64,000 nt of DNA from Psammoneis japonica (GCA_008632985.1 QPGO01000121.1:1-64000), one strand, 5' to 3'; shown: positions 840-64,000, counted from the stretch's first letter. The notes: a model not told the origin generated them from the sequence alone. Numbers and translations: made by a program.

Positions 840-3066
840 CACCCCTGTGGTAGGGGAGCTGTGTGTGTGTGCGTGGTTGTGCGCGCACGGCTTCGCCGTG
901 CGTTGAGTTTTAATGTTAATATCCACACGTATGTGTATATTCCATAAGTAAAAATTCCCATTCCACAGCTCCCCTAAAACTCTAACCACCAAAAACCGAG
1001 GGGTCGGAAGCGCACTTTCGGGAGCTCTTTTTCTCCGCACAAAAAACACGCGTTTCGTCGACTCGACCATGATGATGCCTCGTGGTTCTTCCCCATCGCC
1101 TTCCCAGGACGCCGATCCTACTGACGCCATTGCCAATGACACTGATGCAACAGGCAATGTCATCATTCCGGTTCTGGGTGTGATGCGTACAAAATAAGAT
1201 GCTACAAACTCACACTGTTGTTTGCACGCTCCACCGCCTCCCACAGATGCTGTCACGAATTCCAACGCCGCACCTGCATTTTGGCCCCCTAGCATGCCCG
1301 ATGCTGTTGCTCCTGCCCTTGCTGCCATCACTCCTGCCCTCACTGCCGCAGGTGCTGTTGATGCTGTCATTGCATTTTGCCAATGACGTCCACAATGAAG
1401 TGCCAATGACTCGCACTTCTTTCATTCTCGCCCCACCGCCTCCCACAGATGCTGTCACGAATTCCAGTGCTGCACCTGCGTTTCGGCCCCCTGGCATGCC
1501 CGACACTGTCACTCCTGCCCTCACTGCCGCAGGTGCTGTTGATGCTTGTTGTCTTTTTGCCAACAACGTCCACAACGAAATGCTTGCAACTCACACTTCT
1601 TTCATTCTCGCCCCACCGCCTCCCACAGATGCCATCATGAATTCCAATGCCGTGCCTGCGTTTCGGCCCCCTGGCATGCCCGACACTGCCAATCCCACCC
1701 TTGCTGCTGCAGTTGCTGTTGATGCTGTTGTTGTTTTTGCTTTGGAAGGAACACAATGGATGACGGATGACGGCGGACCAGGAAACCCACGCAACCACGG
1801 CCTGCTGATGGACGACACATCAATGGACATGAATGGTGCCTCTTGGTTGGCTCTCGAGTGCAGTCTAATCTTTGGAACATGCAGACACACATGCAGCTCT
1901 CTGTGGGTTAGAACCTGACAACAATGGATGGCAGGCATGCTTTCACAGTTTTTTAGTTTCAAGTTGGAGAGGTCAGCGAATTGGCATTTGTTTGCAGGTG
2001 ACTTGGCAAGGTTTCAAATGGTGCATGTGACTTGGACACTGCTCTGTTTTCCAGGACCAGGTCATGTGTGCAATTCCACAAGAGGCCACTCTCGCCGTTT
2101 GAGTTCTACATGTGATGTGCAACATGCTGTTTTTGCATGTTGCTAAAATGGAGGCAGGCAGCAACGTGCTTTTGGCAAACACTCACTGTGTTTGTCACTG
2201 TTAGACCTTCAAAACTGGTGCCTTGTCGACAGCCATGCTGCCACTTTGCATGCCGGCACCTTCTCTGCCCGCACTCCATTGGCTGCGTCCTCCTTCACAT
2301 GTTGCTGCGGTTCATCTTGACACTTGTTGTTGGCTCCGATTGGTTCCGCTGGGCTCTGGGTGAGTCTCAATCACCTCCAGATGGACAAGGTTCTGCTTGG
2401 GAACATTGTCCTGAGAAAGGTTGTCACCATGCCTCCTGTCATAGATGCTCCTCTGCCACGCCCACTGAACCTTGACGTCGGTTTGTTGCTTTTGTTTTTT
2501 GACCTGGTTTCGGAGCTGCACCCCAGACGTTTGAGAGAAGGCTCATCAGTGCCTTCCACAACACGGCGATGCGAACGAGAATCCAGTTTTTCCAGGGACG
2601 CAATGACAGGAGCAGACCAATCACGGGCACTGTGTTTGTGTTTCAGGCACAGGATCCGGTGAACAGAACCCAAATCCTCCGGATGGCAAATCGGCTGTGT
2701 TTGGGTAACGACAGCGGGTGCAATGGCACCGGCCATTGCAGGAGGGACTGCCGCATCAGACATGGCAGGCGGGGATGCGTCAGGTGGTGTGGGGGATGAA
2801 GAACGGGAGGTCGTCATGGTCGAGTCGACGAAACGCGTGTTTTTTGTGCGGAGAAAAAGAGCTCCCAAAAGTGCGCTTCCGACCCCTCGGTTTTTGGTGG
2901 TTAGAGTTTTAGGGGAGAATATGGTTCAGGATTTTTCCTGCTACTATTAGCATTTGTGTACAAATGCATAAATAAATGTGAGGACATTTATATAAAAATA
3001 TAATGAATAAGATATAAACTGCCACGTAACCATGACATCACCATATTCTCCCCTACCACAGGGGTG
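840..3066. mobile_element. Non-autonomous TIR DNA transposon, Mutator/MULE-like (9-bp TSD)
   Basis: Perfect 19-bp TIRs cacccctgtggtaggggag (840-858) and ctcccctaccacaggggtg (3048-3066); 9-bp direct repeat cgcgcgcac at 831-839 and 3067-3075; internal ~105-bp inverted repeats at 969-1075 and 2811-2917; no recognisable transposase. Confidence 0.88.
1225..1740 (+). repeat. Three diverged ~180-200-bp tandem units inside the TIR element
   Basis: ccaccgcctcccacagatg...gaattcca...ggccccct.gcatgcccga recurs at ~1231, ~1433 and ~1613; translates as repeated APPPPTDA...AFRPPGMPD. Confidence 0.9.
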
Positions 3067-7127: not shown

Positions 7128-7559
7128 TGTGAATGGATGGCTTTGCTTTGCATGCAGCAGTCGACCAGAGGTGATGCTGTTGTTGTTGTTCATGCTGGAG
7201 CCTTCGCGCGTCGTCGTCGTGCGGTGTGCTGGTGCAGTTGGTGGGAGTTGCACAATGACCCCACCCGCGTTTTGTACTGATTTTCTACGACAAATAGTGT
7301 CCGTTAAATGCTGCGAAAACACGTAGAATTCTACGGAAGAAGTCATAACTTGTGTTATAAGATATTTAAGACCTAAGTAAGATATATCAAATTTCTACTG
7401 AAAGATTGCGTTCAGTTCTTAGTATGTAGAAGTCATACAACGATCACTTCTCATTCCTTTTTCCGGAAAAGGGTGTCATGCTGTACGATTTCGAACCACT
7501 CAACGCAACATCAATCAATTGTGCTCCGCATCAAGCAATTTATCAATCAAGCAATTGAT

Positions 7560-10230
7560 GTAATCTTCTGCCAGCGACCTGACAACAGCACCACAGAGGG
7601 AAAAAGATGTTTTCTGGTGTGTTGCACATGAGGGGGGAAATGGATCTTGAGGGTTGATGTGAGGTTTTGGCATTCTTCACATGCGGTCAATCCAAAACAT
7701 CTTGATGTCTCAGGCAGCAAAGTGCATGACCCCAACAGCCACAACGCTCAAGTGGAAGGGAGTTGCAGGCAGAACAACACTGGCAAGAGCTCTCCAGAGA
7801 CACTCTCACCCATGATGACTTGCAACATCCTCTGTCTTTTGTGCACCACTGGCTTTGCTGGTTGCCGCTGCCCCCAGGCAACCAAGCAAAAGATCAAGTG
7901 ATTTTCTGGGTCAACAAAAAGCAACATTTTCCATCAAAAGCTGTTGTTGAGCACACACACATCCATTTTCCTTTCCAACAACCTGCTGGCCTGCTGCAGC
8001 TGCAAAGTTTCCTCTTCACCCATTGCTTGCACTTTCTGGTGAGAACAGAGCTGGGCTTGCATTTGGTTGTTTCCTTTTTGGCAAATGCCCTGTCCATTGC
8101 TGGCACACCCTGCTGCACTGCCTGGCCTGAGTGCTTCTTCCTTGTCTGCTGTGCTTTTGAGTTGACATCCATTCTAAACCAGAGCTAACTTGGCCATTGA
8201 GTTTGCTGACACTGTCTTTTGGCTCCAGCCAAGGAAGCAGGGTTGCTGCCTTGTGCGCAGCGTGCTTGTTTGTTTGCAGCTTGCATCACCGGCACACCTT
8301 GAGATGAGTTGTTCACAATGAATTTGCAAATTCTGGAGTGTTGTCATTTGGACAAGATGGCAGGTTGGCATTTCTGGCACTTTTGTCATCTGCCACTGGT
8401 GCTGCTGCTCAAGCAACTTGTGCTGCTGGGGGTGCCCCATTTCTCCATGTCAGCAGAAGATTGCAGTGCAGCTGTGGCTGCAGGCTCTGTTGGGCCACAG
8501 TTGCCTTTTTCTGCTGATGATTTTGTTGTTTCATTGTCTGCAACACCCATGAGAGGCTTCAACAGAGAAACAAAAGAGCCAACAGTGCCAGAGTTGGTCT
8601 TGGCTTTGGAGCAGGCAGCACAGCAGGACTGGCTGGCATCAGCGCAGGTGGGGCATGGGAGGATCAGGTGGCACAGGATGGGCAGCAGGTGGGCTCTTGG
8701 AGGAGTGGGCAGCTTTGAAGCATGCAGCTTTGGAGCTGGTGACTGCTCAGTTTGGCTGGAGGAGCAGCCCCAGTGCATCATGATCTCTCACAGCAGCACA
8801 AGCAGTGTGGGGGACATCCCTCTGGCCAGCAACTCCATTGTGTTTGACCTTAATTTGCATGATTCTGTGTGGGAAAATCCAATGTGCTGCATGTGTTGCT
8901 GTGCTGCGTGGTGGGCCCATGCGTGGTGAGACTGGGTTCATGTTTCTTGACACTGGTGCAACATGTGAAAAAACACATGAGAAATGACAGCAAGTGGTCA
9001 CTCAGCAAAGGTGCTTGCCATTTCTGCAAATCCTTTGATTGTTTGTGCTGTGGCATTGGCCAAACTTTCACAAACACCAGCAAAGTCATCTGCACCTCAT
9101 GGTGTCAAAATCCTGGAATTTTTGCACTGCAGACCCCCCACGAAGTTGCAGGTTGGGGCAGAGCCACACTTTTGGCAAACCAGACAATGAGTTGCTTCAG
9201 ACAGCCACTTTGTGCCTCCACCAAGTGTGCAATGGCAAGTTTAAAGAAGCTGTCAAAAACTGGCACATTCATTGCTGCACCTTTCATTGAGGTGCCACTT
9301 TTGCATGAGTGGGCACCACTGCTGCTTCATTTCCAGCACATCATCAAGCCCAATGTGGGCTTGCTTCAGCAGCACTGTCAACAGCATGTTGCAATGCAAA
9401 GCATCTTTTGTCACACCAAGAAATCACAAAAGCATCAGAAAAGTGGCTTGCGGTGGTGTGCCCCTTTCATTTGGTGCTTCAGGATCATCCATTGTCATGC
9501 CAAAACTTGTGGAGCAATGGCAACGTTGTTTCGGGATCACATTTGCATCAATGGCATTGTTCACAACTGGCCCCATTCCACAAACACAAACAGTGCAAGC
9601 ATGGTCACACATTGTCAACACTGTTCCACAAAAGTGCTGCTTGCCATCAATGTGAAAAACAAGACTGTGAAAGGATTTTGCATGTGTGCCACCAGCCAGA
9701 GCCACCAGCGAGAGCCATCACCACACACGGGCCTTGTTGACTGTCACATCTCCTTGTTTGTGCTCTGCTCCCTTGAAGTTTTCATCCACCAAACATGTGG
9801 TTTGTTCAATCCACAATTCTTGTTTTTGATGCAGGCTCTTCATTGAAGTCAAAGAACGATGGAGGCTGTCCCTTTTGGGAGGAGTGTGTTTTTTGTGAAC
9901 ACCACCCGGCATGTGCAATGCTTTCTTTTGTGCCTCTGACAAAGAAAGGCTCTCCTGAAAGTTCAGTAAAAATGTCCACCAAGCCAAGTGATGCAACACT
10001 CACATGCATCTTGAATGAACTGGTGAATGTCCAGCGCACACGTGTCATTGTTGATCGGCTGATCATTCATGGTGCCTCCGCCAAAACATGAGAAAACTGG
10101 CGTCAAGGCACACAAAAGAATGAACACCTTTCAACACTTTTTGAAACCTTTTTTTAACCATTTTTTGCCGGTCCTTACCTCACATTGTCTCCTAAAGCCG
10201 TTGTCTATTTCACCACAACGAAAGAATGCA
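7560..10230 (-). mobile_element. Heavily mutated transposon remnant, tentatively a MULE-like transposase
   Basis: TpA/CpG-depleted block with only broken Cys/His-rich ORFs; minus-strand fragments VFHIDGK and QKWHL resemble MULE DDE-domain motifs; no TIR or TSD found. Confidence 0.45.
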
Positions 10231-10629
10231 AACGACAAAGAGCTGTCGCGTCGTCGTCATGGCAGAGTGGGAGCCACCAACAGTCACGCACAGGCGTCGT
10301 AGATTCTGTACGCAACGGACAATCATAGGCATAGCATCGGCATGCGTTTATCCATCATCGTATGATGTCAAATACCGGTTACGTCTCTACGTGAACGAAT
10401 GTCCGAGTTATTTTATCGGTACAGTATGTGCTGGAATTCCAAATATTGCGTTGGTGTACCGGTAGTTCCTACAGTAGGCCCTACCTGAATTTGTGGTTTG
10501 GTTGTTGGTTGCTGGTTGCTGACCGCTGACTTTCCACAAAGCCAGCTCGAACGGCATTGCATTAAGCAATAAGGTAGCCTAGTAAGTTACTAAGACAGAG
10601 AAGAGCCACCCTATCTTTCGTGCAGCAAC

Positions 10630-12274
10630 ATGTCTTCGTCTTGGGCTCGATTCGCTATCTGGGCCACAAACTTAATCTTGAATGCGCCATCGCAGTTTCT
10701 GCGTGAAAGCGCCAACATCGTTGTGGTCAATACCTTTGCCAACCGCATTCCACCGCGACCTCGCCCGTTAGCCTTGGACGCGGATTACACGACGTGGAAT
10801 GGACTCACGAATCGGACATACAACGGCCGCATCCTTCCAGCGGACCGAGAATACACCAAAACCCTCCCCGACCTCGACAAGGTTCTAGCTTTGTTTGCTC
10901 GTGGCGATGAGACGATCTTGACGAACGCACAACTCTCCTTTTTCCTTTGTTCGCTCAATGGTTTGTAGATGGCTTCTTGCGAACCAATCAAAAAGATTTC
11001 AGGCTCACCGAAGCGCCCGACCATGAGATAAACTTAAATCAGCTGTATGGCACGGGTGAAGCTCAGACAAACATGCTGAGATCTAAGACAGGAGGTAAAC
11101 TGAAATCTCAGGTTTTTAAAGGAGAAGAGTACCCTCCGTTCCTTTTTGATTCTAAGACTCTTGAACTGAAACCGGAGTTCGAAGGCCTGTACACTGAGGC
11201 CAATTTCGAGCGCGTATTTGGATCTGCATCAGACGAAACAAAACAATATGCCTTTGCCGTTGGACTGGACACTGGTAATTCTGCTATTGGGCCTTCCATG
11301 ATGAATATCCTTTTTCTACGAGAGCACAATCGCGTCGCCAGTGTCATTGCCGAGGCGCACAAGGACTGGATGATGAGCGAATCTTCCAGACAACTCGCAA
11401 CTGCATGATTGCAATGGTGATGCGCATTACTGTTGAGGACTACATATATGCTATTTCACAGATTCCAGTTGTTATGGGGCCAATCGGGTTTGCTGAGAAA
11501 GAACGTTGGTATCGAACCAACTGGCTAAGTATTGAATTCAACCTCCTCTACAGATGGCATGATCTAATACCTGATTCGATAGAGTTCGGAGCCACAGCAT
11601 TCGATGCTCCAGCGGCGCTAGGGAACAACAATGCCTTGATGTTTGACCCGGATATGGAAGCGCTACTCGTGGACGCCGCGAACAACCAGGAAGAGTTCGG
11701 AGACCCAGCCTTCGATGCTCCAGCGCTAGTGAACAACAATGCTTTGATCTTTGACCTAGGTATGGAAACGCTGCTCGTGGACGCCTCGAACCAGAAGGCC
11801 GGAAAGCTGATCCTGGGCAACACTGCCCAGTTCTTGATGCCTGTGCAGAATGCCACGCTTCGAGTGTCACGAGCCTGTGGGCTCCGTTCCTACAATGAGT
11901 ACGCTAGGTACTTTGGAATGTCTGTCCCAAAATCGTTTGACGATCTGACTGGCGACCCTGAGTTGTCAAGGAAGCTTGCTAGCGTCTATGATAGTGTAGA
12001 GCAAGTCGAATGGTACGTTGGACTTTACGCAGCAGAACGGGAGGTACCAAGTATGTTTGCGCCCACATTGATGAATTTTATGGTTGGATACGATGCCGTG
12101 ACACACATCTTCACAAACCCTTTGCTCAATAGTGCAGTTTACTCGAAAGACACGTTTTCCAAGGAGGGTTTTGAAATCATGGAAAGTACGAATCGGCTTC
12201 ATGATATCGTCATTCGGAACACGAAGATTACTGATCCCGCGACGGTTTCTCTGGTTTCAGATCGTCGAGACTAA
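10630..12274 (+). CDS. Cyclooxygenase-like haem peroxidase (peroxidase-cyclooxygenase superfamily), intronless, frameshifted near 10915 and 11370-11400
   Basis: DYTTWNGLTNRTYNGRILP, FAQWFVDGFLRT, HEINLNQLYG, FLREHNRVA, EFNLLYRWH (catalytic Tyr and proximal His equivalents), YNEYARYFG, TNPLL across three consecutive ORFs. Confidence 0.85.
11581..11794 (+). repeat. In-frame 111-bp tandem duplication within the COX-like gene
   Basis: agagttcggag...ttcgatgctccagcg...gaacaacaatgc...gtggacgcc.cgaac at 11581 and 11692. Confidence 0.9.
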
Positions 12275-12539
12275 ATGCACAATGTTGTTTAGAGTTTTTT
12301 ACGTTGGGGTTGAAAGAATCCCATTTTTCAACAGTAGCTAGGGCGTCTCTCCTACTTTTACTTTCCGTGTCTATTGAAATCACACCTGCTTCCACAAAAC
12401 CTTGCCAAAGAACCACGCAGCGTGTGCCGGATAAGCACGAATCATGATAGGACCCAAGCCGCGAAAGAGACCCAGAAAGCCACGCTCGCGATCGATGCGA
12501 AATCATTTCTGGAAAGCAGCTGCCAAGAATCATGACATC

Positions 12540-14638
12540 CCGTCGAGATCGGACGCTGTTTTTGGCAAGTCAAATGGCATGGCAATTGTTTATCCCAACA
12601 TTACGCAAAGCCACCTCTGCACAGAAGAAAGTGGATGTCAGACCCTCTTTGAGTACAATGCCAAAGTTGTTTCTCCTGTTTTCCAACCAAGGACTCACAT
12701 CAAAAAGTGGCTCAGCTCCTCTGGGATTGATGGCACACAGGTTTCTCAGAGAAGGCACCTCGTTTGTGGGAACAATGCCCACCTGCATTGGTTGGGTCTG
12801 CAAATGGGACATTTCAGGGGAACCTTGAGTTTGGCTCTGCAGGAGTAAATTCCAAGGGAACCACACACCATGCCATCTTGTCCCCAGTCTAGCCACAGTT
12901 GCCCTGAGCCAAATCCAGTGGCAAAATTTCAATTGTTCTAACATGGCAGGGACACTCTTGAGGAGTCAGCCTGGCACTTCTCTCATTGGCATTGTGCTGG
13001 GATCTTGAGCATGGAGTGTTGAACCAGCAAGTCAAAGTCGCCAACAAAAGGGAATCCGACAAGATTTCTATGCCACTTGTTGCACTTGCCTTGGCAGTCT
13101 CCAGCAGTTGTGGGACACCTTGGTGCATCTGCACAAACTCTGCAACTGCTGCAACAACAGGCATCTCTTGATGCTGACTGACAATCATGCAAACCAAATG
13201 ATTCACTCAAAACAGTGAGAACAAAACACATGCAAGGGATTGATGGCAGTGCTCATTTCTTCACAGAAGGTTGCATCAGCCAACTGCATCAGGGTCCATG
13301 CATCTTTCTTGTTGGTGCATCTGGGTCACACAACTTGACACCTCTGAGTCTCACAACTTCACATTCCTGACACACTCCTGCTGCTTGCATTGATGTCTCT
13401 TAAAACACAGTCTGACAATGCTTCTTGGGCTTGGACCCATTTCCATTTGAGACACAAAGCACGCTCTGTCCCAACACAAGCCATCAAGTTCATTGTTGGC
13501 ACCCTCCAGGTCACAGCGTCAAAAAAGGTTTGCATGCCCCATCCAAAAAGTCAATCAAATCATTGAAAGCATTGGCAATTTTTCATTATGCACTCTCTCC
13601 ACAAAATGCCATGCAAAGGCACATCTCTTGTCTTCTCAATGCTGACACTGAAGTCCATGGACCAACCAATTGATCCACAACCATCTGCCAATTGTCTTTG
13701 GGGTCAATTGAGGACCTCCACATTCTTGTGAGTCCACTCTGTCTCTTGGGACTGGCTCAAACAATCTTGCAATTGAAGAAAAAAAATGAAACACACCGTG
13801 AGCAACTCCTCTCTCTTCTCAATCTTGAGCAAGCTCAAATGGCTCATTTGTCATCAGGATTGTGGGGACCACAAACCCAATTGGCGCTGGTGCCACAGGT
13901 GGGACAGCTGACTGTCAATTTCTCCATCAATGGGTGGTTGACATCACCTCTGTCCAGGGCAAACTGCAACCCACCATTCCCAAAGCCTGCAATGCACTCT
14001 TCTTTGACAATTCATTGCTCTCATCATGCTTTGCAGTGCTGCTGCAACATGTGCTGCCTTGACACAATCCCTTGCATCCCACTGCCTTTGCCAGCATTCT
14101 CCTTGGTCTTGTGATCTCTTGCATGGTGCACATCATCCACATCCTGGTGCATGTTGACATCACATTGTGAGGTGTGAAGCAAACATTGGCACAGCAGTGG
14201 ACATGCATTCATGTGCCTGTGGCTCCCAGGTGCTTGCAAAGTCTTCATGTGGGTCCTCCACTTGGCGGTGTCTTTTCTTCCACACACAATTCCCACAGCC
14301 ACTGAAAACAGTCAAGGCAAGTGCAGCAAGTGGTGAAGGAGACCATGTTGGGCTCTCTTTTAGTGACATTGACTTGCCAGCAACATTTGCTCCAAAAAGT
14401 GAGAACAAAATACATGCAGGGGATCAATGATGGCACTGATCTCTTCACTGAAGGACACACCAGACAGCCACGTGAGGATCCACACATCTTGCAGTTGTGA
14501 GGTTGGAAGTCTTGAGAGCAAATTTCACAAAGCAAAGTGCAAATTTAAAGAAGACTCAGCATTTGCAATCTGGCAGCAACAAATCTCTGACAAGAGCACT
14601 CCCCAAGAAATCACTGCACAGCCAAGCAAAGCTGTGAA
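12540..14638 (-). mobile_element. Degenerate repeat/TE of unassigned family (homologous to 62.7-64 kb)
   Basis: TpA/CpG-depleted; 13010-13400 aligns by eye with 63420-63810 (shared ctcttgatgctga.tgacaatcatgcaaaccaaatgattcactc). Confidence 0.7.
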
Positions 14639-14911
14639 NNNNNNNNNNNNNNNNNNNNNNNNNNNNNNNNNNNNNNNNNNNNNNNNNNNNNNNNNNNNNN
14701 NNNNNNNNNNNNNNNNNNNNNNNNNNNNNNNNNNNNNNNNNNNNNNNNNNNNNNNNNNNNNNNNNNNNNNNNNNNNNNNNNNNNNNNNNNNNNNNNNNNN
14801 NNNNNNNNNNNNNNNNNNNNNNNNNNNNNNNNNNNNNNNNNNNNNNNNNNNNNNNNNNNNNNNNNNNNNNNNNNNNNNNNNNNNNNNNNNNNNNNNNNNN
14901 NNNNNNNNNNN
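14639..14911. other. Assembly gap (N run) followed by poly-G
   Basis: N run read directly. Confidence 1.
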
Positions 14912-14929
14912 GGGGGGGGGGGGGTGAGG

Positions 14930-15370
14930 TTGCATTGAAACTGTGAAGATGCAGTTGGCTTGATCAGAGAGGTCAGAAAAAGAGCTTGCTTGGGTCATCT
15001 GTTGGAGCATCTGGCTCGGGGGACACAACATGTGGCTGACCCAGAAATGAAGTTGTGTCTTTTAAACCATGACGTGGCATGTTGATGACTGTTCTTTGGA
15101 GAACATCCTCAGTCATTGAACTTGATCGTGATCTCACCAACTTTTTGGAGTGAATCATCTGGCTTAACAACAACAACAAGTGGCACCTGGTGATGCCCAA
15201 CAATCCATCAGTTTGCATTCTGTGCATGATGTCAAGGCAAACCACAGCCAACACAGCAACCAGGGCAAGTTTGGCAAGTGGCACAGGAAGCCCAATGGGG
15301 AGGATTTCCTTTTGGTGACTCAGACTTGCCGGTTCAACATTCACTCCAAAGAGTCATTGGCACTTGTTGA
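14930..15370 (+). repeat. Copy of the unassigned repeat family (similar to 20330-20700; inverted relative to the 13.0 and 63.4 kb copies)
   Basis: Shares atcatctgg..., caacaacaagtggc, gccaacacagcaaccag.gcaagt and gtggcacaggaagccca with 20480-20690. Confidence 0.75.
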
Positions 15371-15399
15371 GTGTGCACTGACTTGGCAAAAGTCCACAA

Positions 15400-18300
15400 G
15401 ATCATTCATGAGTGTGGCAGAGCATGCAGAAAACAAGCAAAGATTTGTGACCTTCACAAGGATGATGGTGGAAGGGACAACAGAAGCCATGCCAAGAACA
15501 AGAAGTCTTTCCAATGTGAAATGAAGTTTTGTCCTTCTACACTGGACTGCAATGTGCACAAAGAAGGTCTGCAGATGTGTGCAGAAGGAATTCAAACAAG
15601 GCAAATGTGCTGCAAGATCACTGGAGGACATGAAGCACCTTGACTTTGAGGCCAAGCAAGAAACCAAAATTGAAGCTGTCAACAACCACACCTGAGGAGA
15701 ATGCAGACACTCACATGAGAGAGACCTGAAGAAAAAGGAGTGCAAGGACAAACAGATGGAACACAAATTCCATGCCAAGCACAATGAATGCTGCTCAAAA
15801 CTGAAGCAGTTCAATGAAAACAAATCAAGGCATTTGCTTTGATCATGGATGATTGCTGCACAAACCACATGAGGAACAGGGTCATGAGTGACCCAAGCTG
15901 CAACAAAATCAGGGACAATCCAATTGAGTTGCCAAAACTCATCCATTCCCTGATGTTCCATTCAATTCAAGGTTGACACCCATTCCATGCATTGACCAAG
16001 TTCCTGAAGAACACACCACAGGTCGTGAGGCAACAATGAAATGAGTCGTCATGGATCACTTGTCAAGATTCAAGAACAAGACTCCACAACAAGAGATGGC
16101 CTGGGTGGTGAGATGCCAAATGGGTTTGTTGAGAACACCAAGGAGCACAAGAAGGAAAGCAACAGCACCAAGCAAACTGAGCTGAAGAAGACACTGTTTG
16201 ATGCCTGAATGATGCACCTGTTTGTCAAGCACAGTGACAACCATTGCCACAAGACTCTGAAGAAGAGCTTCATGAGAGACTGCAGTCTGTGAAATGACAT
16301 GCACCCCAAGGACTTAGACAGGGCAATGGATGTCTTTTTCAACCATGAACAAGATGACAAACAGCAGAGAAGCAACTCAAAGAACCATGACCGTCACAAC
16401 AAAAGCAGGAAGGAAAAGAATGACAGCAAGAACAAGTGCCAGAGTTGTGCAGAGAAGGCCAAGAACAAAAGCAGAACAACACGCCACTGTTGCAGCAAAG
16501 AGGATCAAAAATCCCCGGAGTGCAGCCACAAAGACAAGATGGCTGCCAAAGATTGGGGCGCAATGAGACCAGAAGAAAGCCAGATGCACAGGGACAGAGT
16601 TGTGCACAAACAAGAGATGGCAATGGAGACCACTCTTTGGCAGACAGTGACATGAGCATCAACGCTGCCAGATTGACAAGATCCACCCATTCAACCCAAA
16701 GCAAGGGATGCTTGGCACTGGTTGCAGCTGGTCAGCAAACTGCAAGAGACAAGCATGAGCAAGTCAAGTGTGGGTGTTGAGACTGATGAGATCATTTTAG
16801 ACAACAGATCTGCCCTCAGCATGGCAGCAAGCTGGAGACCAGTGCATGATGCATGACCAGCAAAGACCAAGATTGACCCACCCACAAATGCAGGAGTGTG
16901 CACCCTGGACAAGGATTGCGCCATGCCAGGATGGGGTGACATGGAGTTGGGATCAAAGGGCATGATGGCAAATGTTCCAAGCCTGAAGGATGTGAAGGCC
17001 AAGCACTGCTTGACATGCAAAGACTGAGTGGCATAAAAGTTTTGACTGCTGAACAAGAAGACTGGCAAACAAGTCACAGTTTTTCAGGCAAACAACATCA
17101 AACTGCACACATTTGCAGTTTTTTGACCATGCCAAGGGCCTGCAAAGAGCAGAGTCACAAGCAAACATGAACCTGGTCAAGAAGAAAACAAAGAAAAGCA
17201 ACAAGAAGCACAGGAGTGCACTGGAGGCCATTGTCCCAACCATGAAGCACAACACCACAGGCTGCTCCAAGAGGAAGGTGGCAAACATTGAGTTGGCACT
17301 GCAGCTGTGCTGCAAGGCCAGTGCACCAGTGCCAGAGATTTCAAATGATTCCTTCATTCCAATCAGGTGAAGAACCTGTTCATTGTGCCAGAGGACATGG
17401 ACAGGATGGTGGACATTTGGGAGCTGCCTGTTGCTGCACTGAAAGGCAAGACCAAACAAGCACACCATCCCCAAGTGAAAACTGATGTGACAGTGACACC
17501 ACCCAAGATGTGCGGCAAACAAAGAGAAGGCATGATGCTGTGCATCTGCATCATGGAAGCATGTGGCACCAAACTGCTGCTCACTGTCAACAAGATGATC
17601 AAGTGTTGTTGATCAAGTGTGTGGCTAAAATCCAAGGAGCGGGCAGACCTGTGTGAGTTGCCAGACATGGTGCTGTGACAACACAGCAAAGCAATGTTCA
17701 ACACAAATTTTGTCAAATGCAACCCCAAGTTCAAGGTCATGCTTGCTGAAATGGCCAGCAGGACAACCCTCAAGCTGTTGCCAGTGAGTGCAAGCAACCA
17801 TGTGCCCAAGGTTGAGTGCAGCATCAAAGCTGTTAAAGAAAGGACCCCAGCTGCTGTGCACCACCCACCTCCCAAGGCCATGCCCAAGCATGTGTGCAAA
17901 CATGCAGTCACAAAAACCACCATGGAAAACATGCATCTGCAGAAAGAGGGCATTTCAAACACCTGCAGCCCACACACCATCATGCAATGCCAAGTTCTTA
18001 ACTGCAACAAACATTTTGAATTTTCCTTTGGGGAATTTGTTCTCTGTCTCATTTTGAGAACAACCCCACCAACACCATGGAGACATGGGCATTGACAGCA
18101 TGTGTGTCTGTGCCAACATTTGACTCTCCAAAAAGGACATTGCACCACGAACCTGCACATGGGGAAACTTCTCAACCCCTGCAAATGCTCCCTCCTCCAT
18201 GCCCTCAACTGACACATGTCAGAGCAGTCAAACAGATGGCACAGGCCCAGGGTGCCAAAGACTTTAAATTTGTGGGCAAAGGCAGAGACAATGTTTGCAA

Positions 18301-19600
18301 TGCTGGCAGGACTGCAGGAGTGGAACAAGATGACAATGACAAAAACAAAAATGAAGACCAAGAAAGTGAAGACAGCACTGACAAAGAATGCAATGAAATG
18401 GACTCAGATGAAGAATCCAAAGAAGCCAACAACACACATCCTGGCTGGTGAAAGGTCCAGTCCCAACCAGCACGACAAGGACACAGAATCAGAAGATGAC
18501 AGCTGCAGCCACCACAAAGAGGATGACCATGAGGACATTGATGATGCAAAAGATGACAACAAATCTCACAAAGACACCAAGGAGCTGAAGATGGAACAGA
18601 GGAAAAAGCCAGAGCTGCAACCCACACAACCACAAGGTCTGGAAAGTCCTTTGCACAAAGGCACAAGAAGCATGAAAAAATGGTCCTGTTCACAGGGGTG
18701 ACCCAAACTGATGAAGAGCAGGAAGAGATCACAAAGCTGGGTTGCTGTGCCTCCATCTGCAACCAAATGTGAGTCCAAATCCAGAGAACACCTTTGGGTG
18801 CAATTCCAAATCAGCAATGGCATCAGTGCAGTTTGTGTGCAAGACAAATGACAGAGTTTCCAAGCTGCCGGAAAGGGTGTTTTGTTTGCCCAACAGCACC
18901 CACTGCATGAATGCCTGAAAGCACTCAAAAACAGAAGGGGCATGATGCCTTCAAGAAGGAGACAGAGAACAACTCCACAATGGGGTGTGTGCTTTGCGCC
19001 AACATCTGTCAAAGAAATTGCTCCAAGTGAAAGGGTCAAGGCCACATGTGCCCCAATGTTCCTTGCAGAGAAACAAGACAGTCAGACTCAAAGGATGAGT
19101 GGTGTGCAATCTACAATGGGACACCAACCACGGAGCAGCTGGACAAAGATGAGTCAGCCAGTCCAGCGGTGTCATTGGAAGGAGTGTTCATGACTGCAAT
19201 TGTTGACACCAAGAAAGGGCGCAACATCATGAGCACCAACATGCCCAACTCATTCATCCAAACTCAGGCTCCAGAAGTCAAAGACGGAAAGGATGGGATC
19301 GTGATGAAGATCACAAAAGTGCCAGCTGATGTGCTTGTCAGCATTGATCTTGACCTTTGTGGACTGCACATGGTCCTGGAAAAGGGCAAGAGACAACTTT
19401 GCATGCAAGTCCACAAGAATCCAGAAAAGATTGGGTTTGTGCTCAACCCATGTGACCCATGTGTTGCCAATTGCACTGTCAATGGGAAACAGCACGCGCA
19501 AGATTCCATGTGGACAATCTGTTGTTGAGCCACCGGAGCCCAAAGTGAACAACAAATTTTTAGGTTGGTGGTTCAAGGAAGCCCTGCTTGCATGACATGT
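15400..19600 (+). mobile_element. Ty1/copia LTR retrotransposon remnant (CoDi-like), hypermutated
   Basis: Protease-like ILDNRSALSM (~16790), integrase-like NHVPKVECSIKAVKER (~17800), RT-like ASPAVSLEGVFMTAIVD...NMPNSFIQT and GFVLNPCDPCVANCTVNGKQ (19150-19490), in copia order PR-IN-RT; LTRs not identified. Confidence 0.85.
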
Positions 19601-20900
19601 CATGGACTGGTCTCTAGAGATCAATGAACATGTGTTTGATGCAACACTGATTGCAGCTTTGAGGATCTCAAAGAGAAGATGTCACAAAAAGACAAGGACC
19701 ATGCACTGAGCTGTGGAGCACTGGCAGATTGCAGGCAGTCACACCAACAGACAAGGGCTCAGACTCCACCCAAGTTGGAGATTTGTGGATGACAAAAGCG
19801 CAGCACTCAACAGTGCAACAGTGGCAGGCTCAAGCCTGTGACATGGACACTCAAGGGAGTTGTGGTCCCTTGATGAAGAGAATCACAAGAGAAGCCGGTG
19901 AAACCCAAGACCAACACAGACTGGTTGGGAACAAAACTGGAACAATTTTTGATGCCAAAAAATTGGCGGCATTTGTCCATCATTGTGACATCAAGGTTGG
20001 AACGCAGGCTGCATGATGTGCTGTGCACATGTCGCAAAATGGAGTTCCCAGAGCTGCTCCGAGAGAGAACTGACAATTGGATCAGCAGCTGCTCCCTGAT
20101 CCACTGGTTGACATCATCAAAGAAAGCATCCATTGTGCCTGCATTGGGCATTTTGTGGAAGCCACAAAGGGCTGCACAAAAGACATGGCCACTTTCTCAG
20201 ATGAAGGACGTTGTGCCGCCAATCTGCACCATGGCAGCCAAGATGTCAAGTGTGTTGTTGGGAGGAGTGGCACCCCAGAAGATGAGACTGTCAAGTTTCT
20301 CATCCTAAATCCCTGGAACATTGGCAAGAGTGGCAGGGTGTGGAGTCTTTGGCCTGGAAATGCAGCTGCTGCATCTTTTGAACCCTGGCATGGCGCATGT
20401 TGACAGCATTGATGGCTGCTCTTTGGAGAGCATTTTTCATCATTGATTGTGATCTTGCCAACTTTTTGCGCTCACTGTTTGGAGCAAATCATCTGGTTTG
20501 ATCACAACAACAAGTGGCGCTTGCAAACATCCAACAATCTGTCAGCACACGGTTTGCATGCACGACATTGTTGGGGCAAGCCGCGGCCAACACAGCAACC
20601 AGAGCAAGTGCAGCGAGTGGCACAGGAAGCCCAGCAGGCACCCCTTTTGGCTACATTGATTTGCTGGTTCAACATCATCAGGAGCATTGGAGCTTTCCAA
20701 GGAACAGCTGCTCAGTTTTTTTGGGATGCTTTGCTTTGTTGCTCGCAGAAAACAACCCCAGAAAGTGCTTTTGCAGAAGCAGGTGCGAGCTGTTTGTGGC
20801 TCCCTCATGCTTGTGGCACACAGTTCCTTCATGAGCACACCTCAAAAGCATCCCAGCACTTGTCTGCACATCTTCCATGGGTGTTGCACAGCATCTGTTC
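19600..20900 (+). mobile_element. Degenerate copy of the unassigned repeat family
   Basis: TpA/CpG-depleted; 20330-20700 is homologous to 15000-15360 and to the reverse complement of 13010-13200. Confidence 0.65.
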
Positions 20901-21295
20901 ACTCACTTCATGAGACACAGCGCGAGAGACAGTGACCCGCACAATTTGCTGCGGTTCCGACAGTGAGATTCGATGATGCAACAGCGAGACGCAGCCACGT
21001 CGTTTCTTCCGCGCCGATTGGCTGCAACATCATTGATGAAACGAAAGCGTTTCCCGCCTTGCGAACTCCGTGTCAATTCTCGCTGGATGGAAGAAGCCTT
21101 TGGCATCTGTTTCTACGAGCACTTCAATGACAGTTCTGTAGGATACCGTAGAATTTGTACTGTCCACGTCATTACTGGTCACGGATGAGCTGATGTCACC
21201 ACTTCTGGCATAAGTCGAAGAACACGGCCACGTCAGCGGCGCTTTTCAGAAATTCCCTCCAACGTTTTCAAAATTTTCGTTGCTCCTGCTCCACC

Positions 21296-22496
21296 ATGAA
21301 GATGACCAACACTTGTAAACTCCTCGCCGCGCTCGGCGTCTTTCACTATGCCGTGTGGGGTACTGCCGCATTCGTATCTCAAGTACCAAAGGTAGGAATG
21401 CCAGCTCTTGGTTATCGCTCGAGACGTGGACGTGGACGTCGATACGAATACGATACGGACTACGAGTTGGAGGAACGGGAAAGAGTTCTAGAGGAGAGGG
21501 AAAGGGATTTGGAGGAACGGGAAATGGAAATGGTAAGCAGTTTCAGACTCTAAACTCTTTGTCTGTATTCCCTATTAGTTCTCACAGAGGACTCACCTGC
21601 GTGATGTTTTTGTGACACAGAGAGACAGAGACATTGAAAGAGAGATCGACATGGATCGCTTTGATCGTAGAGGAGGAGATATTGTATATGATGGGCCCCG
21701 TCGTGGGCGTAGTACTGTTGGACGTGACCTTGGCTTTTCTTCTGGCAGAGGGCCCTATGCACGTCAAGGCAAGGATCTAAGAGGTCCACGTCGTGAAGTA
21801 GTTCAAGGAGGGTCGCTCAAGACGTGGTCATTTGATACCGACGTTGTTGATAGCGTGCGAGTTCTGCTCGAGTCTGAGGGTCGCCCGTTGGATGCAGACA
21901 TCGAATTGTGGCAGGGCCCCGACAACACTCCTCATAAAATGAGGATCTACTCCGAAGATGGATTTATGCGCCCCTTCTGTGCCGTGCTTGACACCCCAGG
22001 CAGCCCCAACACCATCACGGTTCGCAACAACGGCATGTTGGAGTTCCCCCTCGATGCATACGTAACGGAAGACTCCATCGCGACCGGATCTGTTGGCGGC
22101 GAAACGGCTGCTATAGCTTACGACATGGTTTCGTACCCAGAGACAATTCAAGGAGGCGCTCTCCGTACATTCGACTTTGACTCCACCGTCGACAGTGTTC
22201 AAGTCTTGTTGGAGAGCGACGGCCGTCCTTTGAATGCGAGAATCGAGTTACTCCAGGGGCCCAACAACAAAAAGCAAGTCGTCGAGTTGTACACGGACGA
22301 TGGAAACTACCGTCCGTTCTACATGATTGTCGAAACACCAGGAAGTGGAAACGTAGTTAGAATTGTAAACTCCGCCACCATGGAATTTCCCTTGTACGCA
22401 AGGGTAGAGCCGTACTCATTCACCGAGTATGAATACGGAACCGGTCGTGGACGCCGTGGCCGTGTTGGTCCATACAGCAGACGAAATGGGTACTAA
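21296..22496 (+). CDS. Algal protein of unknown function with two tandem homologous domains, plastid-type presequence; intron 21533-21620
   Basis: Signal peptide ending TAAF; duplicated QGG(S/A)L(K/R)T.SF...VLLES.GRPL.A.IEL.QGP.N...PF....TPGS.N domain; phase-0 GT..AG intron keeps frame. Confidence 0.8.
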
Positions 22497-62699: not shown

Positions 62700-64000
62700 G
62701 AGTCAAGTTGAAAAAGACTCCAAAAGAGCCAGGGGGTGAGTTGAAAGACTCTCCACACCTCAGCTGGTGCCGCACAAGAAATGGGTGCTGAGAGGGCATG
62801 TTGAAAAGAACACCTCTGCTCCTGAAGTGTGGCTGCACCTCTCTGTCTCTTTTCTTCTTGCTGTTTGTGTTTGCACAGCTCCCATTGACTTTTTTTTTAT
62901 CCTGGAATTGCCTTTGCATTTGAATTGAATTTTTTTGCAGTGCTCATTTTTTAAAATGCAAAAATTGTTCACAGCCACACCACCACTCACACCCGATCGC
63001 GCACCAAAAAACGAGAACATCATGCACCGCGATCAAAGCACGATGATGTGATGGCAATGGTTGATGTTTCTCCAAAATGCAGTGGTCTAACCACAATAAT
63101 TTGATGTGCGTGTGACCTTTTACACACAACAAACACAAAATGCATGGGAGTTGGTGGTTGGACCACCTCCTTCCCACAGACTTGTGGCTTGATGTTTTTC
63201 ACTTTCACCATGGTGAAGCACGGTGAAACTCAGAAAAAATCATGCAAATCACAAGCTGTTTAACCAAATTCAAGCTAAAAAAAACAGCAACCAGCTCCCA
63301 TTGAGCTGTGCAAAAACATGCACCAAAAACTTGGGTTCCAAGTGGGCAAATTTCAGGCTGGCAGAGCAAGTTTAAAAACATGCCTGAGCGGCACTGTGCG
63401 CAACAGAGCACACAGCAGCACCATCCTGGTGTCACACCAACAAGTCAATGTCGCCAAAAGGGAATCCTGTGAGGTCTTCCATGCTGCTTCTTGCAGTTGT
63501 TGTGGCAGTCTGTGGCAGCTGTGGTTTGCCTTGGCATCAATGTAAACTGAACAACTGCTGAAATGACAGGCACCTCTTGATGCTGAGTGACAATCATGCA
63601 AACCAAATGATTCACTCCAAAGAGTGAGAGACACTCGCAGGGAATGTGGTGACACTTGTGATCTCATCAGAGAAGAACACTCCATCCAACCACACATCAG
63701 GACCAACATCCTTCTCATTCAACATGTCTGGGTCACATGATGTGACACCCATGTCTCACATTTTGATCTTCCAACACACACTCCTGCTGCTCCTCGCATT
63801 GATGATCTGACATTCCCTGGCTTCATGATTGCACTGAGGCTTGGCATTGCCCTCTGGCATGCTCATTGCAAATTTGTCAGGTGCGTCAATGCTGTTGTCT
63901 GACAGCTCACACAAAGCGAACATCTGAATTGAGCTGCAATCTTCAAAGTCAAGGGGAGGAGCATGTGTCAAATTTCTTGTTTGCAATCCACCCCACTTGA
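62700..64000 (-). mobile_element. Degenerate TE/repeat, same family as 12.5-14.6 kb; runs off the window
   Basis: TpA/CpG-depleted; 63420-63810 homologous to 13010-13400. Confidence 0.7.

What the first reader, a model, noticed from the sequence alone, without database searches (positions are those of the whole stretch)
7560..20900. Repeat-restricted loss of TpA as well as CpG: candidate genome-defence hypermutation, opposite in direction to RIP
Seen: all TE-derived blocks (~1250-2800, 7560-10230, 12540-20900, 62700-64000) are almost free of TA and full of TG/CA. A manual count of 8401-9000 gave 1 TA and 3 CG in 600 bp, where a few tens of each would be expected. Neighbouring genes have normal TA and CG. 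ORFs in these blocks are Cys/His-rich, nearly Tyr-free, and end mostly at TGA. Known: 5mC deamination explains CpG to TpG/CpA, and fungal RIP creates TpA. Neither removes TpA. Inference: a second repeat-targeted process converts TpA to TpG/CpA (A:T to G:C), so silenced DNA converges on TG/CA from both sides. I do not know of a described mechanism for this.
Basis: partly seen in the sequence, partly recalled or inferred. Interest (0 to 1): 0.93.

Follow-up and report, generated by a model that had tools for sequence, protein, structure and literature searches.

The report
TpA-erasing hypermutation in diatom retrotransposon relics
Dead retrotransposon copies in this diatom genome have had nearly every TpA as well as every CpG converted to TpG/CpA, which matches a TpA-specific hypermutation of foreign DNA so far reported only in one unrelated alga.

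Summary
Trimmed to their cores, the three strong blocks (7560-10230, 12540-20900, 62700-64000) keep 39 TpA of ~410 expected and 92 CpG of ~686 expected, and TpG/CpA is nearly doubled. An independent DNA run reproduces the sequence.

The core of the region (about 15040-20700) is a degenerate Copia-type LTR retrotransposon in a diatom nuclear genome. Polarity is shown at protein level. At 26 Tyr positions conserved in intact relatives, the window has Cys (TGY) 9 times, His (CAC) 9 times and Tyr once. Other conserved residues are kept at 235 of 436 sites. Intact relatives have ordinary TpA.

The loss is strand-symmetric, so it happened at DNA level. It follows a simple flank rule: TTAA is spared and ATAT/GTAC are erased. 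It can occur without CpG loss, as two stretches have no TpA but near-normal CpG. Five TG<->CA doublets between two genome data sets suggest very fast, recent turnover.

A 2026 preprint shows TpA-only T/A->C/G hypermutation of integrated viruses in Bigelowiella natans. This looks like the same kind of process in a diatom, at saturation and on top of methyl-CpG decay. The enzyme is unknown; a DNA adenine deaminase is the leading guess.

The parts
7500..10100 (.). Block B2: fully converted stretch (TA o/e 0.06, CG 0.16) of unknown origin. It is single-copy by depth in the independent run.
   Evidence: composition, edges; no Pfam or Copia homology; depth ~61.5, the same as the flanking genes
12600..14638 (.). 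Left part of B3: older relic DNA holding LTR-like units 13015-13386 (-), 14291-14382 (+) and 14385-14490 (-). It ends at an assembly gap (N run 14639-14911).
15040..15360 (+). 5' LTR of the degenerate Copia-like element
   Evidence: direct repeat with 20365-20700; 76.6% identical over 278 aligned bases, 55 transitions, 10 transversions, 10 TG<->CA discordant dinucleotides
15827..19775 (+). Internal gag-pol region, colinear with intact ~1,670-aa Copia (RVT_2) polyproteins. It carries 20 in-frame stops and frameshifts, and 1 Tyr codon is left.
20365..20700 (+). 3' LTR of the element
20726..21100 (.). Flank beyond the 3' LTR with TpA loss only: 0 TA, TG o/e 1.57, CA 1.61, but CG o/e 0.84
62700..64000 (.). 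Block B4, cut by the window end. It is converted DNA holding an LTR-like unit at 63428-63792 (-) of the same family as 13015-13386.
1250..2800 (.). Block B1: milder and ambiguous. A 180-nt tandem repeat (1328-1740) and Pro/Ala/Thr-rich ORFs lie between inverted duplicated gene starts (969-1094 / 2792-2917). Stretch 1301-1850 has 0 TA, CG o/e 0.59, TG 2.20, CA 1.55.

Best explanation
The window is diatom nuclear DNA. Region 12600-20700 is a nest of Copia-type LTR-retrotransposon relics, including one nearly full-length dead copy at about 15040-20700. After they ceased to be functional, two separate context-specific transition processes acted on the double-stranded DNA in place. (i) CpG>TpG/CpA, most simply deamination of methylated CpG. 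(ii) A TpA-specific A:T>G:C process that turns TpA into TpG or CpA with equal probability on either strand. Process (ii) behaves as two independent single-strand hits. The chance of each hit depends on one flanking base: 5'-TA followed by T or C is hit most, G less and A hardly at all, so TTAA survives. It is confined to domains with sharp edges, can act where CpG is largely intact, and appears to be still active. It is the same kind of process as the TpA-only hypermutation of integrated viral DNA measured in Bigelowiella natans, seen here at saturation in a stramenopile and on retrotransposons. Shown here: the signature, its polarity, strand symmetry, flank rule, separability from CpG loss, and reproducibility. 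Inferred: that it is enzymatic, with a DNA adenine deaminase that requires a 5' T as my leading guess at about 35-40%; that it is targeted by chromatin or small RNA; and that it serves as genome defence. The confidence given is for a locally targeted, DNA-level, TpA-specific A:T>G:C hypermutation of the B. natans kind, not for the identity of the enzyme.
For: Host: Pfam DiatomPyrShell, E 4e-85, at 21579-22496; a solved diatom pyrenoid-shell chain at E 6e-86. Element: 741 homologs at E<=0.001 for ORF 19031-19528. All 8 that I scanned with Pfam are RVT_2. Alignment to full polyproteins is colinear over 15827-19495. Polarity: of 26 sites where >=60% of >=10 intact references have Tyr, the window has TGC/TGT 9, CAC 9, TAC 1 and other codons 7. 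Other non-Arg conserved residues are kept at 235 of 436 sites (Fisher p 1.3e-7). Arg is kept at 4 of 23 sites, with 12 single-step CGN>TGN/CAN changes. Leu>CCA occurs 7 times and Ile>ACA/ATG 5 times. Strand symmetry: Cys 9 against His 9 in the window. In 7 independent Tyr-poor database relics, 10 conserved Tyr columns read His 19, Cys 18, Tyr 5 and other residues 13. Not intrinsic to the lineage: 80 of 80 loci with intact relatives have TA o/e >=0.32, median 0.62. Flank rule: a two-strand multiplicative model fits the 10 NTAN contexts with chi2 1.5. The doses are A 2.53, G 2.21, C 1.0, T 0.13. TTAA keeps 12 of 16.8 expected, ATAT 0 of 31.9 and GTAC 0 of 29.7. Separability: 1301-1850 and 20726-21100 have 0 TA with CG o/e 0.59 and 0.84, and no 300-bp window shows the converse. 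Changes in place: the LTR pair has 10 TG<->CA discordant dinucleotides, against 0-1 in three gene-repeat controls. Among the 40 differences shown of 48 between the window and run X1 there are 5 isolated TG<->CA doublets (about 0.06 adjacent pairs expected by chance, P~8e-9), 5 CG<->TG/CA singles and 3 TA<->TG/CA singles. Precedent: in B. natans, 230 of 231 de novo mutations in two viral inserts were A>G or T>C, all at TpA, at ~1000x the background rate. TpA-poor CDS there are enriched for RT and DDE domains (Results read).
Against: No methylation, chromatin, small-RNA or expression data could be seen, so targeting and the origin of the CpG loss are inferred. The 10 discordant LTR sites could come from CpG alone: ~17 CpG expected in 278 bp would give ~8.5. 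The LTR pair therefore does not prove that TpA loss came after integration. The one TA/TG difference between the LTRs lies in TTAA and could be a new TpA. The strain differences are not polarised, 8 of 48 were not shown, and X1 may be the same culture or the other haplotype. LTR divergence outside YpR steps is ~13% (26 transitions + 10 transversions in 278). From that alone a ~25-fold excess rate over a long time would suffice, and only the 5 doublets argue for ~1000-fold. No close, unmutated copy of the same family was available; the relatives are 23-49% identical at protein level. The deaminase guess fits imperfectly. The eukaryotic ADAT anticodon contexts I recall are U-A-G/A/C rather than U-A-U, and amphioxus ADAT2 prefers GAA for A and TCG for C on DNA (passages). 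Whether the 21 Tyr-poor database relics come from other organisms could not be learned.
Confidence: 0.74

Rival explanations
1. No dedicated enzyme or defence exists. In methylated or heterochromatic DNA of this diatom, ordinary damage or repair (for example error-prone or biased mismatch/base-excision repair, or TpA-specific lesions) raises the TpA>TpG/CpA rate some tens of fold. Old relics simply reach equilibrium.
For: LTR divergence outside YpR steps is high, about 13%. The element is therefore old, and a ~25-fold excess would already give the observed ~90% loss. CpG shows a similar degree of loss (13% left, against 9.5% of TpA).
Against: Five isolated TG<->CA doublets separate two nearly identical genomes. 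They need a very fast second step. The flank dependence is enzyme-like and fits a two-hit model. TpA loss extends into DNA with near-normal CpG. In B. natans the same signature arises de novo at ~1000x and only in some lines.
Confidence: 0.13
2. The modified base is thymine, not adenine. A TET/JBP-type or other enzyme modifies T in 5'-R-T-A (as with 5hmU or base J), and the modified T mispairs or is mis-repaired to C.
For: TpA is palindromic, so A>G and T>C cannot be told apart. The flank rule can equally be read as purine > C >> T on the 5' side of the T. From recall, not from any call: dinoflagellate 5hmU and kinetoplastid base J sit preferentially at TpA.
Against: I know of no precedent for efficient T>C mutation from such bases. 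The strict requirement would then fall on the 3' neighbour, which is unusual. Deaminase-fold enzymes typically read the 5' neighbour (recalled).
Confidence: 0.07
3. RNA-level A-to-I hyperediting (ADAR- or ADAT-like, 5'-U preference) of retrotransposon transcripts was fixed by reverse transcription and reintegration.
For: The 5'-U preference of A-to-I editors would give UA>UG. The best-characterised block is a retrotransposon.
Against: Sense-strand editing predicts Tyr>Cys only. Observed are Cys 9 and His 9, and His 19 and Cys 18 in other relics. TA-involving differences and doublets occur at the same locus between two genome data sets. The LTRs diverged in place. A non-element flank is also TpA-free. 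The targets in B. natans are DNA viruses.
Confidence: 0.04
4. The element family is intrinsically TpA- and CpG-poor through selection (for example to escape UpA- or CpG-sensing host factors), or the pattern is an assembly or sequencing artefact.
For: Many RNA viruses are UpA/CpG-poor (recalled). The window comes from a draft assembly with N gaps.
Against: Conserved Tyr is replaced at 25 of 26 sites, there are 20 in-frame stops, and Pfam no longer recognises the RT. Intact relatives have normal TpA. An independent run reproduces the sequence.
Confidence: 0.02

Closest known systems
TpA-specific hypermutation of integrated viral DNA in Bigelowiella natans (Mettrop et al., bioRxiv 10.64898/2026.01.13.699255; abstract, whole Results and Discussion read, supplements closed)
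   Same: Only TpA is hit and it becomes TpG or CpA depending on the strand. The process is confined to foreign or mobile DNA domains. The long-term footprint is low TpA with high CpA+TpG, and it is enriched in RT/DDE-bearing ORFs. The direction is opposite to the usual GC>AT bias.
   Different: The host is a diatom (stramenopile), not a chlorarachniophyte (rhizarian). The identified target is an LTR retrotransposon, not an NCLDV or virophage. The footprint is at saturation: TA o/e 0.05, against Rho 0.45 for the NCLDV insert. It coincides with near-complete CpG loss, which that paper does not mention ('CpG' 0 occurrences). The flank rule and the TG<->CA doublets are new here. No de novo rate has been measured here.
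Repeat-induced point mutation (RIP) of Pezizomycotina fungi
   Same: Transition-only hypermutation of mobile or repeated DNA in place, on both strands, which destroys ORFs. Diatoms carry DNMT4 enzymes related to RID (passages of PMC9998398).
   Different: RIP makes TpA from CpA. Here TpA is destroyed and CpA gained, so the direction is A:T>G:C rather than C:G>T:A. GC content is kept (~48%) rather than lowered. Short tandem repeats inside genes are untouched.
Methyl-CpG decay of silenced transposons (5mC deamination)
   Same: CpG o/e is 0.13-0.25 with TpG/CpA gain, restricted to TE relics. Diatom TEs are known to be CpG-methylated (PMC9998398, abstract and passages).
   Different: It cannot remove TpA. 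Here TpA loss is at least as complete and also occurs where CpG is near normal.
Deaminase editing of retroelements in animals (APOBEC3 on cDNA; ADAR on dsRNA) and DNA-active ADAT2 (amphioxus BjADAT2, PMC10354150, passages read)
   Same: The idea that a CDA-fold deaminase mutates mobile elements. A-to-I editors and TadA/ADAT prefer a 5' U/T. BjADAT2 shows that an ADAT can deaminate both A and C in DNA, with TCG preferred for C, and TCG is also the most depleted CpG context here.
   Different: The marks here are strand-symmetric and lie on integrated DNA. The A preference of BjADAT2 is GAA, not TA. No enzyme is identified here.

Membership tests
TpA-specific hypermutation of foreign DNA (B. natans type) | Changes are A:T>G:C transitions confined to TpA | tested here: met
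   39 TA are left of ~410 expected, while AA, AT and TT are near normal. Conserved Tyr became TGY or CAC at 18 of 26 sites.
TpA-specific hypermutation of foreign DNA (B. natans type) | Both outcomes (TpG and CpA) occur, i.e. either strand is hit | tested here: met
   Cys 9 and His 9; His 19 and Cys 18 in 7 other relics; TG and CA o/e both 1.7-2.0.
TpA-specific hypermutation of foreign DNA (B. natans type) | Confined to integrated foreign or mobile DNA, with neighbouring genes spared | tested here: inconclusive
   Met for the Copia relic and its LTR-family fragments. The origin of B2 and B1 is unknown. The gene at 10594-12274 between blocks is normal.
TpA-specific hypermutation of foreign DNA (B. 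natans type) | De novo rate orders of magnitude above background; episodic between lines | not testable with these tools
   There is only an indirect hint: 5 TG<->CA doublets between two genome data sets, against ~0.06 expected.
Fungal RIP | C>T at CpA, producing excess TpA and a drop in GC | tested here: not met
   TA o/e is 0.05-0.09, CA is raised, and GC is ~0.47-0.49 as in the flanks.
Methyl-CpG decay alone | Accounts for all of the dinucleotide distortion | tested here: not met
   The CpG loss fits, but TpA loss is not produced by C deamination, and it occurs alone in 1301-1850 and 20726-21100. The presence of 5mC could not be tested.
RNA hyperediting fixed by retrotransposition | A>G on the sense strand only, acquired before integration | tested here: not met
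   Tyr>His is as frequent as Tyr>Cys. There are locus-specific TA<->TG/CA differences between data sets.
Ty1/Copia LTR retrotransposon (identity of 15040-20700) | RVT_2-type reverse transcriptase and a colinear gag-pol | tested here: met
   The window ORFs themselves fail Pfam. ORF 19031-19528 has 741 homologs at E<=0.001, and 8 of 8 scanned are RVT_2. Residues ~150-1346 of ~1,676-aa polyproteins align colinearly to 15827-19495.
Ty1/Copia LTR retrotransposon (identity of 15040-20700) | Flanking direct LTRs; target-site duplication, PBS and PPT | tested here: inconclusive
   The direct repeats 15040-15360 and 20365-20700 were found. I did not look for a target-site duplication. The stretches where a PBS and PPT would lie were printed, but I did not analyse them for either.

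The most novel reading that the evidence does not exclude
Diatoms possess an active genome-defence system that is independent of CpG methylation. In it a DNA adenine deaminase (or equivalent) requiring 5'-T erases TpA from mobile DNA at roughly 1000x the background rate, spares TTAA, and is homologous to the system behind B. natans hypermutation. That would make TpA-erasing DNA editing an ancient immune mechanism shared across SAR, and perhaps more widely, that has been overlooked in algal genomes.
Probability: 0.3. Interest if true: 0.9.

Novelty: new member of a known kind. Interest (0 to 1): 0.72.

Why it matters
TpA-specific A:T>G:C hypermutation of foreign DNA has, as far as my searches show, been reported once, in a 2026 preprint on a chlorarachniophyte, and its enzyme is unknown. 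If the same footprint exists in a diatom, the process is not a curiosity of one lineage. It would then be present in one of the most important groups of marine primary producers, some of which can be engineered with CRISPR, so the enzyme and its targeting could be found by knock-outs. The flank rule derived here (TAT ~ TAC > TAG >> TAA, with each strand hit independently) can be compared directly with candidate deaminases and with the de novo mutations in B. natans. The finding also has practical consequences. Such relics escape Pfam and TE annotation, they yield long spurious Cys/His-rich ORFs that end in TGA and already sit in protein databases, and they distort estimates of TE age and of mutation spectra.

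Tried and rejected
- Whole genome of the window: none is held, so no genome-wide profile or family-wide polarised spectrum could be made.
- Pfam on 28 block ORFs and on 15 read-through frames (stops as X): no family passed in the blocks.
- Inverted repeat 969-1094 / 2792-2917 as a polarity test: both arms are unmutated, so it gave nothing.
- LTR pair as proof of post-integration TpA loss: the discordant sites can be explained by CpG alone.
- A transition-tolerant local alignment over-extends in this TG/CA-rich DNA. I trust only about 15040-15360 against 20365-20700.
- The search for homologous proteins with the RT ORF: 8 candidates, none at E<=1e-5.
- The listing of cluster members for the sources of Tyr-poor relics: database switched off.
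- Earlier findings of the scan: none by place, words or sequence.
- Metagenome loci: the scan's pattern and ranking favour intact copies. Only 1 small patch with the signature (L049 395-608) was found in 338,503 bases, which says nothing about breadth. No locus was close enough for a nucleotide-level comparison.
- Identity of B2 and of 12600-14638: no hit with 153 ORFs of intact elements or 150 homologs.
- Expression: no RNA holder listed.
- One enzyme for both losses (an ADAT2-like enzyme deaminating TA and TCG): considered, but ACG, CCG and GCG are also 78-87% depleted and TC in general is not depleted. CpG loss is therefore better explained by methylation, and the extra depletion at TCG remains unexplained.
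- Biased gene conversion towards GC: rejected, because AA, AT and TT are not depleted.
- Literature: six searches found no report of TpA loss in diatom repeats. The diatom mutation-accumulation paper PMC6604790 (passages) has 0 occurrences of 'transpos' and, in the passages seen, names CG/CC/TG as mutagenic contexts and makes no mention of TA.
- The supplements of the B. natans preprint (the list of mutated sites) are closed, so its flank preferences could not be compared.

Full report
**1. The observation**

A 500-bp profile of the window shows four stretches where TpA and CpG almost vanish and TpG/CpA nearly doubles, while G+C stays at about 0.46-0.52 as in the flanks.

| Stretch | TA o/e | CG o/e | CA o/e | TG o/e |
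|---|---|---|---|---|
| 7560-10230 (B2) | 0.06 | 0.16 | 1.98 | 1.78 |
| 12540-20900 (B3) | 0.05 | 0.13 | 1.76 | 1.97 |
| 62700-64000 (B4) | 0.09 | 0.25 | 1.70 | 1.95 |
| 1250-2800 (B1, milder) | 0.11 | 0.54 | 1.71 | 1.72 |
| Rest of the window | 0.54 | 1.00 | 1.12 | 1.18 |

The other twelve dinucleotides are near normal. The TG+CA excess is what full conversion of TA and CG into TG/CA would give.

- In the trimmed block cores, 39 TA remain of ~410 expected and 92 CG of ~686 expected.
- TGA is 602 of 673 stop triplets in the blocks, against 1777 of 3194 outside them.
- The edges are sharp. The haem-peroxidase gene at 10594-12274, between two blocks, is normal.
- No whole genome is held for this window.

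**2. It is not an artefact**

One public DNA run (X1, 2019, kept as Logan contigs) holds 0.88 of the sampled words of 15400-20400. Laid on 7000-21500, it covers all 30 bins. Its long pieces carry 0-16 other letters each over 548-3293 bases. X1 may be the same culture or the other haplotype, but it is a separate data set.

**3. What the DNA is**

The host is a diatom. ORF 21579-22496 matches Pfam DiatomPyrShell at E 4e-85 and a solved diatom pyrenoid-shell chain at E 6e-86.

Pfam finds nothing in the blocks, either in 28 ORFs or in 15 read-through frames. An exhaustive HMMER search with ORF 19031-19528 nevertheless found 741 proteins at E<=0.001. All 8 that I scanned are RVT_2, i.e. Copia-type reverse transcriptases. 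Intact polyproteins of ~1,670 aa, taken from metagenome loci, align colinearly to 15827-19495 on the + strand.

A direct repeat at about 15040-15360 and 20365-20700 brackets this region. I therefore read 15040-20700 as one dead Copia-like LTR retrotransposon.

Copies of the LTR-like unit also lie at 13015-13386 (-), 14291-14382 (+), 14385-14490 (-) and 63428-63792 (-). These copies are 71-76% identical in nucleotides but 86-88% identical in a purine/pyrimidine alphabet, so most of their divergence is transitions.

B2 has no detectable homolog and is single-copy by depth in X1. B1 is a 180-nt tandem repeat with Pro/Ala/Thr-rich ORFs, lying between inverted, unmutated duplicated gene starts.

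**4. Polarity**

A functional polyprotein needs Tyr, and Tyr codons are TAY. In ~1275 homology-supported codons the window has 1 Tyr (0.1%), Cys 4.5%, His 4.9% and 20 stops. Fourteen long relatives have Tyr 3.4%, Cys 1.3% and His 3.0%.

I then worked per site, with 269 reference proteins, keeping sites covered by >=10 of them with >=60% consensus (485 sites):

| Consensus residue | Sites | Kept in window | Main changes |
|---|---|---|---|
| Tyr | 26 | 1 (TAC) | TGC/TGT 9, CAC 9, other 7 |
| Arg | 23 | 4 | 12 single-step CGN>TGN/CAN (CAA 4, TGA 2, TGY 4, CAY 2) |
| Leu | 36 | 21 | CCA 7 |
| Ile | 30 | 11 | ACA 3, ATG 2 |
| All other residues (neither Tyr nor Arg; includes the Leu and Ile rows) | 436 | 235 | - |

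Tyr retention against the other residues gives Fisher p 1.3e-7. The direction is therefore TA>TG and TA>CA, starting from a functional ancestor.

Eighty of 80 loci encoding intact relatives have ordinary composition: TA o/e median 0.62 (minimum 0.32) and CG median 0.85. The lineage is not intrinsically TpA-poor. Those relatives are only 23-49% identical to the window copy, and no unmutated copy of the same family was available.

**5. Strand symmetry and level of action**

Tyr>Cys (TA>TG on the sense strand) and Tyr>His (TA>CA) are equally frequent, 9 and 9.

Of the 142 database homologs of >=100 aa, 21 are themselves nearly Tyr-free. In 7 of these, the 10 conserved Tyr columns read His 19, Cys 18, Tyr 5 and other residues 13.

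Editing of a sense RNA followed by reverse transcription would give only Tyr>Cys. The symmetry points to double-stranded DNA.

The two LTRs, which are identical at insertion, now differ by 55 transitions and 10 transversions in 278 aligned bases. Ten dinucleotide sites read TG in one LTR and CA in the other, against 0-1 such sites in three gene-internal repeat controls. That shows independent mutation in place. The ~17 CpG expected in 278 bp could alone give ~8.5 such sites, however, so this does not prove that TpA loss came after integration.

**6. Differences between the two data sets**

Forty of the 48 single-letter differences between the window and X1 were shown. Their contexts include:

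- 5 isolated TG<->CA doublets (7509/10, 7764/5, 8021/2, 13285/6, 20459/60);
- 5 CG<->TG/CA singles;
- 3 TA<->TG/CA singles (7523, 14411, 18840).

About 0.06 adjacent pairs are expected by chance (P~8e-9).

A TG<->CA switch needs two transitions through TA or CG. Isolated doublets between genomes that are otherwise ~99.5% alike imply that a newly arisen or ancestral TA/CG is resolved very quickly. I estimate this at the order of 1000x the neutral rate. That estimate rests on 5 events, and the ancestral state is unknown. The TA and CG that persist would then be the refractory ones.

**7. Flank rule**

Residual TpA depends strongly on context.

| Context | TA observed | TA expected |
|---|---|---|
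| TTAA | 12 | 16.8 |
| CTAA/TTAG | 11 | 29.2 |
| ATAT | 0 | 31.9 |
| GTAC | 0 | 29.7 |
| ATAC/GTAT | 1 | 70.4 |

In the model, each strand is hit independently, with a dose set by the base 5' of the T (equivalently, the base 3' of the A on the other strand). It fits all 10 contexts with chi2 1.5. The doses are A 2.53, G 2.21, C 1.0 and T 0.13. Read as adenine deamination, this gives 5'-TAT ~ TAC > TAG >> TAA.

For CpG the order is T 1.6 > A 1.09 ~ C 1.0 > G 0.48. TCGA is at 0 of 62 expected and GCGC at 15 of 32.6. The fit is poorer (chi2 9.9).

**8. Two processes, not one**

Two stretches have no TpA and raised TG/CA but largely intact CpG: 1301-1850 (CG o/e 0.59) and 20726-21100 (CG o/e 0.84). 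The second lies beyond the 3' LTR, towards the pyrenoid-shell gene. No 300-bp window shows the converse, i.e. CpG gone with TpA kept.

All four NCG contexts are depleted by 78-92%, while TC in general is not depleted. CpG loss is therefore most simply methyl-CpG decay, and TpA loss is a separate process that can reach further or act sooner.

Tandem repeats inside genes (36750-37850, 39855-40294, 11572-11791) have normal TA and CG. Repetition alone is not the trigger at that scale.

**9. What is known**

Six full-text searches found no report of TpA loss in diatom repeats. They did find a 2026 preprint on Bigelowiella natans (10.64898/2026.01.13.699255). I read its abstract, whole Results and Discussion; its supplements are closed. 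Its findings:

- In mutation-accumulation lines, two integrated viral regions mutate ~1000x faster than the rest of the genome.
- 230 of the 231 mutations there are A>G or T>C, and all of these fall on TpA.
- Hypermutation occurs in only some lines.
- TpA-poor, CpA+TpG-rich CDS and 1-kb clusters are enriched for RT and DDE domains.
- An ADAT2 homolog is proposed as the enzyme.
- The words 'diatom' and 'CpG' do not occur in the text.

Other papers, of which I read passages only:

- Amphioxus ADAT2 deaminates A and C in DNA, preferring GAA and TCG (PMC10354150).
- Diatoms have DNMT5 and RID-related DNMT4 enzymes (PMC9998398).
- A diatom mutation-accumulation study does not mention transposons or TA (PMC6604790).

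**10. Verdict**

The process is the reverse of RIP in direction, and methylation cannot explain it. It is no longer without precedent, because it matches the B. natans phenomenon in signature. I file it as a new member of that newly described kind.

What this case adds:
- a second, distant host lineage;
- a retrotransposon target;
- saturation of the footprint;
- co-occurrence with CpG decay, but separability from it;
- a quantitative flank rule;
- doublet polymorphisms that hint at current, very fast action.

The enzyme and the targeting are unknown. My leading guess is a DNA adenine deaminase that requires a 5' T, at about 35-40%. A non-enzymatic or repair-based excess (about 13%) and a thymine-modification route (about 7%) are not excluded.

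Noticed in passing
database proteins P0070, P0067, P0088, P0086, P0003 and 16 others: Of the 142 Copia-RT homologs of >=100 aa in the public representative library, 21 are nearly Tyr-free and rich in Cys/His. They are predicted 'proteins' that are really hypermutated relics, so the footprint exists at other loci or in other genomes and pollutes protein databases.
   Followed up: partly
window 969-1094 and 2792-2917: A 126-nt inverted repeat, 93% identical (99% in R/Y), that covers a 5' region and start codon of two convergent ORFs. It looks like an inverted duplication of a gene start around the B1 tandem-repeat region. Both arms keep their TA and CG.
   Followed up: partly
window 36593-37852: The ORF has six tandem ~180-195-nt repeats, each matching the C-terminal part of Pfam CCDC53 (a WASH complex subunit; 6 stretches, E 5e-62). 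This is an unusual multiplication of that domain.
   Followed up: no
window 11572-11791: A 108-nt in-frame tandem duplication (about 85% identical) lies inside the animal-haem-peroxidase-like gene (10594-12274).
   Followed up: no
window 21579-22496: A diatom pyrenoid-shell protein gene lies about 500 bp from the edge of the hypermutated domain. The TpA-free zone (20726-21100) reaches towards its promoter side without loss of CpG.
   Followed up: partly
window 7000-7560: The intergenic stretch just upstream of B2 holds 8 of the 40 listed differences between the window and run X1 in about 560 bp. That is denser than in the genes or the blocks.
   Followed up: no
window 52428-53471 (-) and 33984-36806 (+): An ORF with DNA/RNA non-specific endonuclease plus a lamin-tail domain, and a 940-aa ORF with a sub-threshold hit to a DSP-PTPase domain of polymorphic toxin systems (22.3 bits, cut-off 27).
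   Followed up: no
window 14639-14911 and 28166-28915: Two assembly gaps (N runs of 273 and 750). The first lies inside the hypermutated nest, directly before the 5' LTR, so the structure there is incomplete.
   Followed up: no
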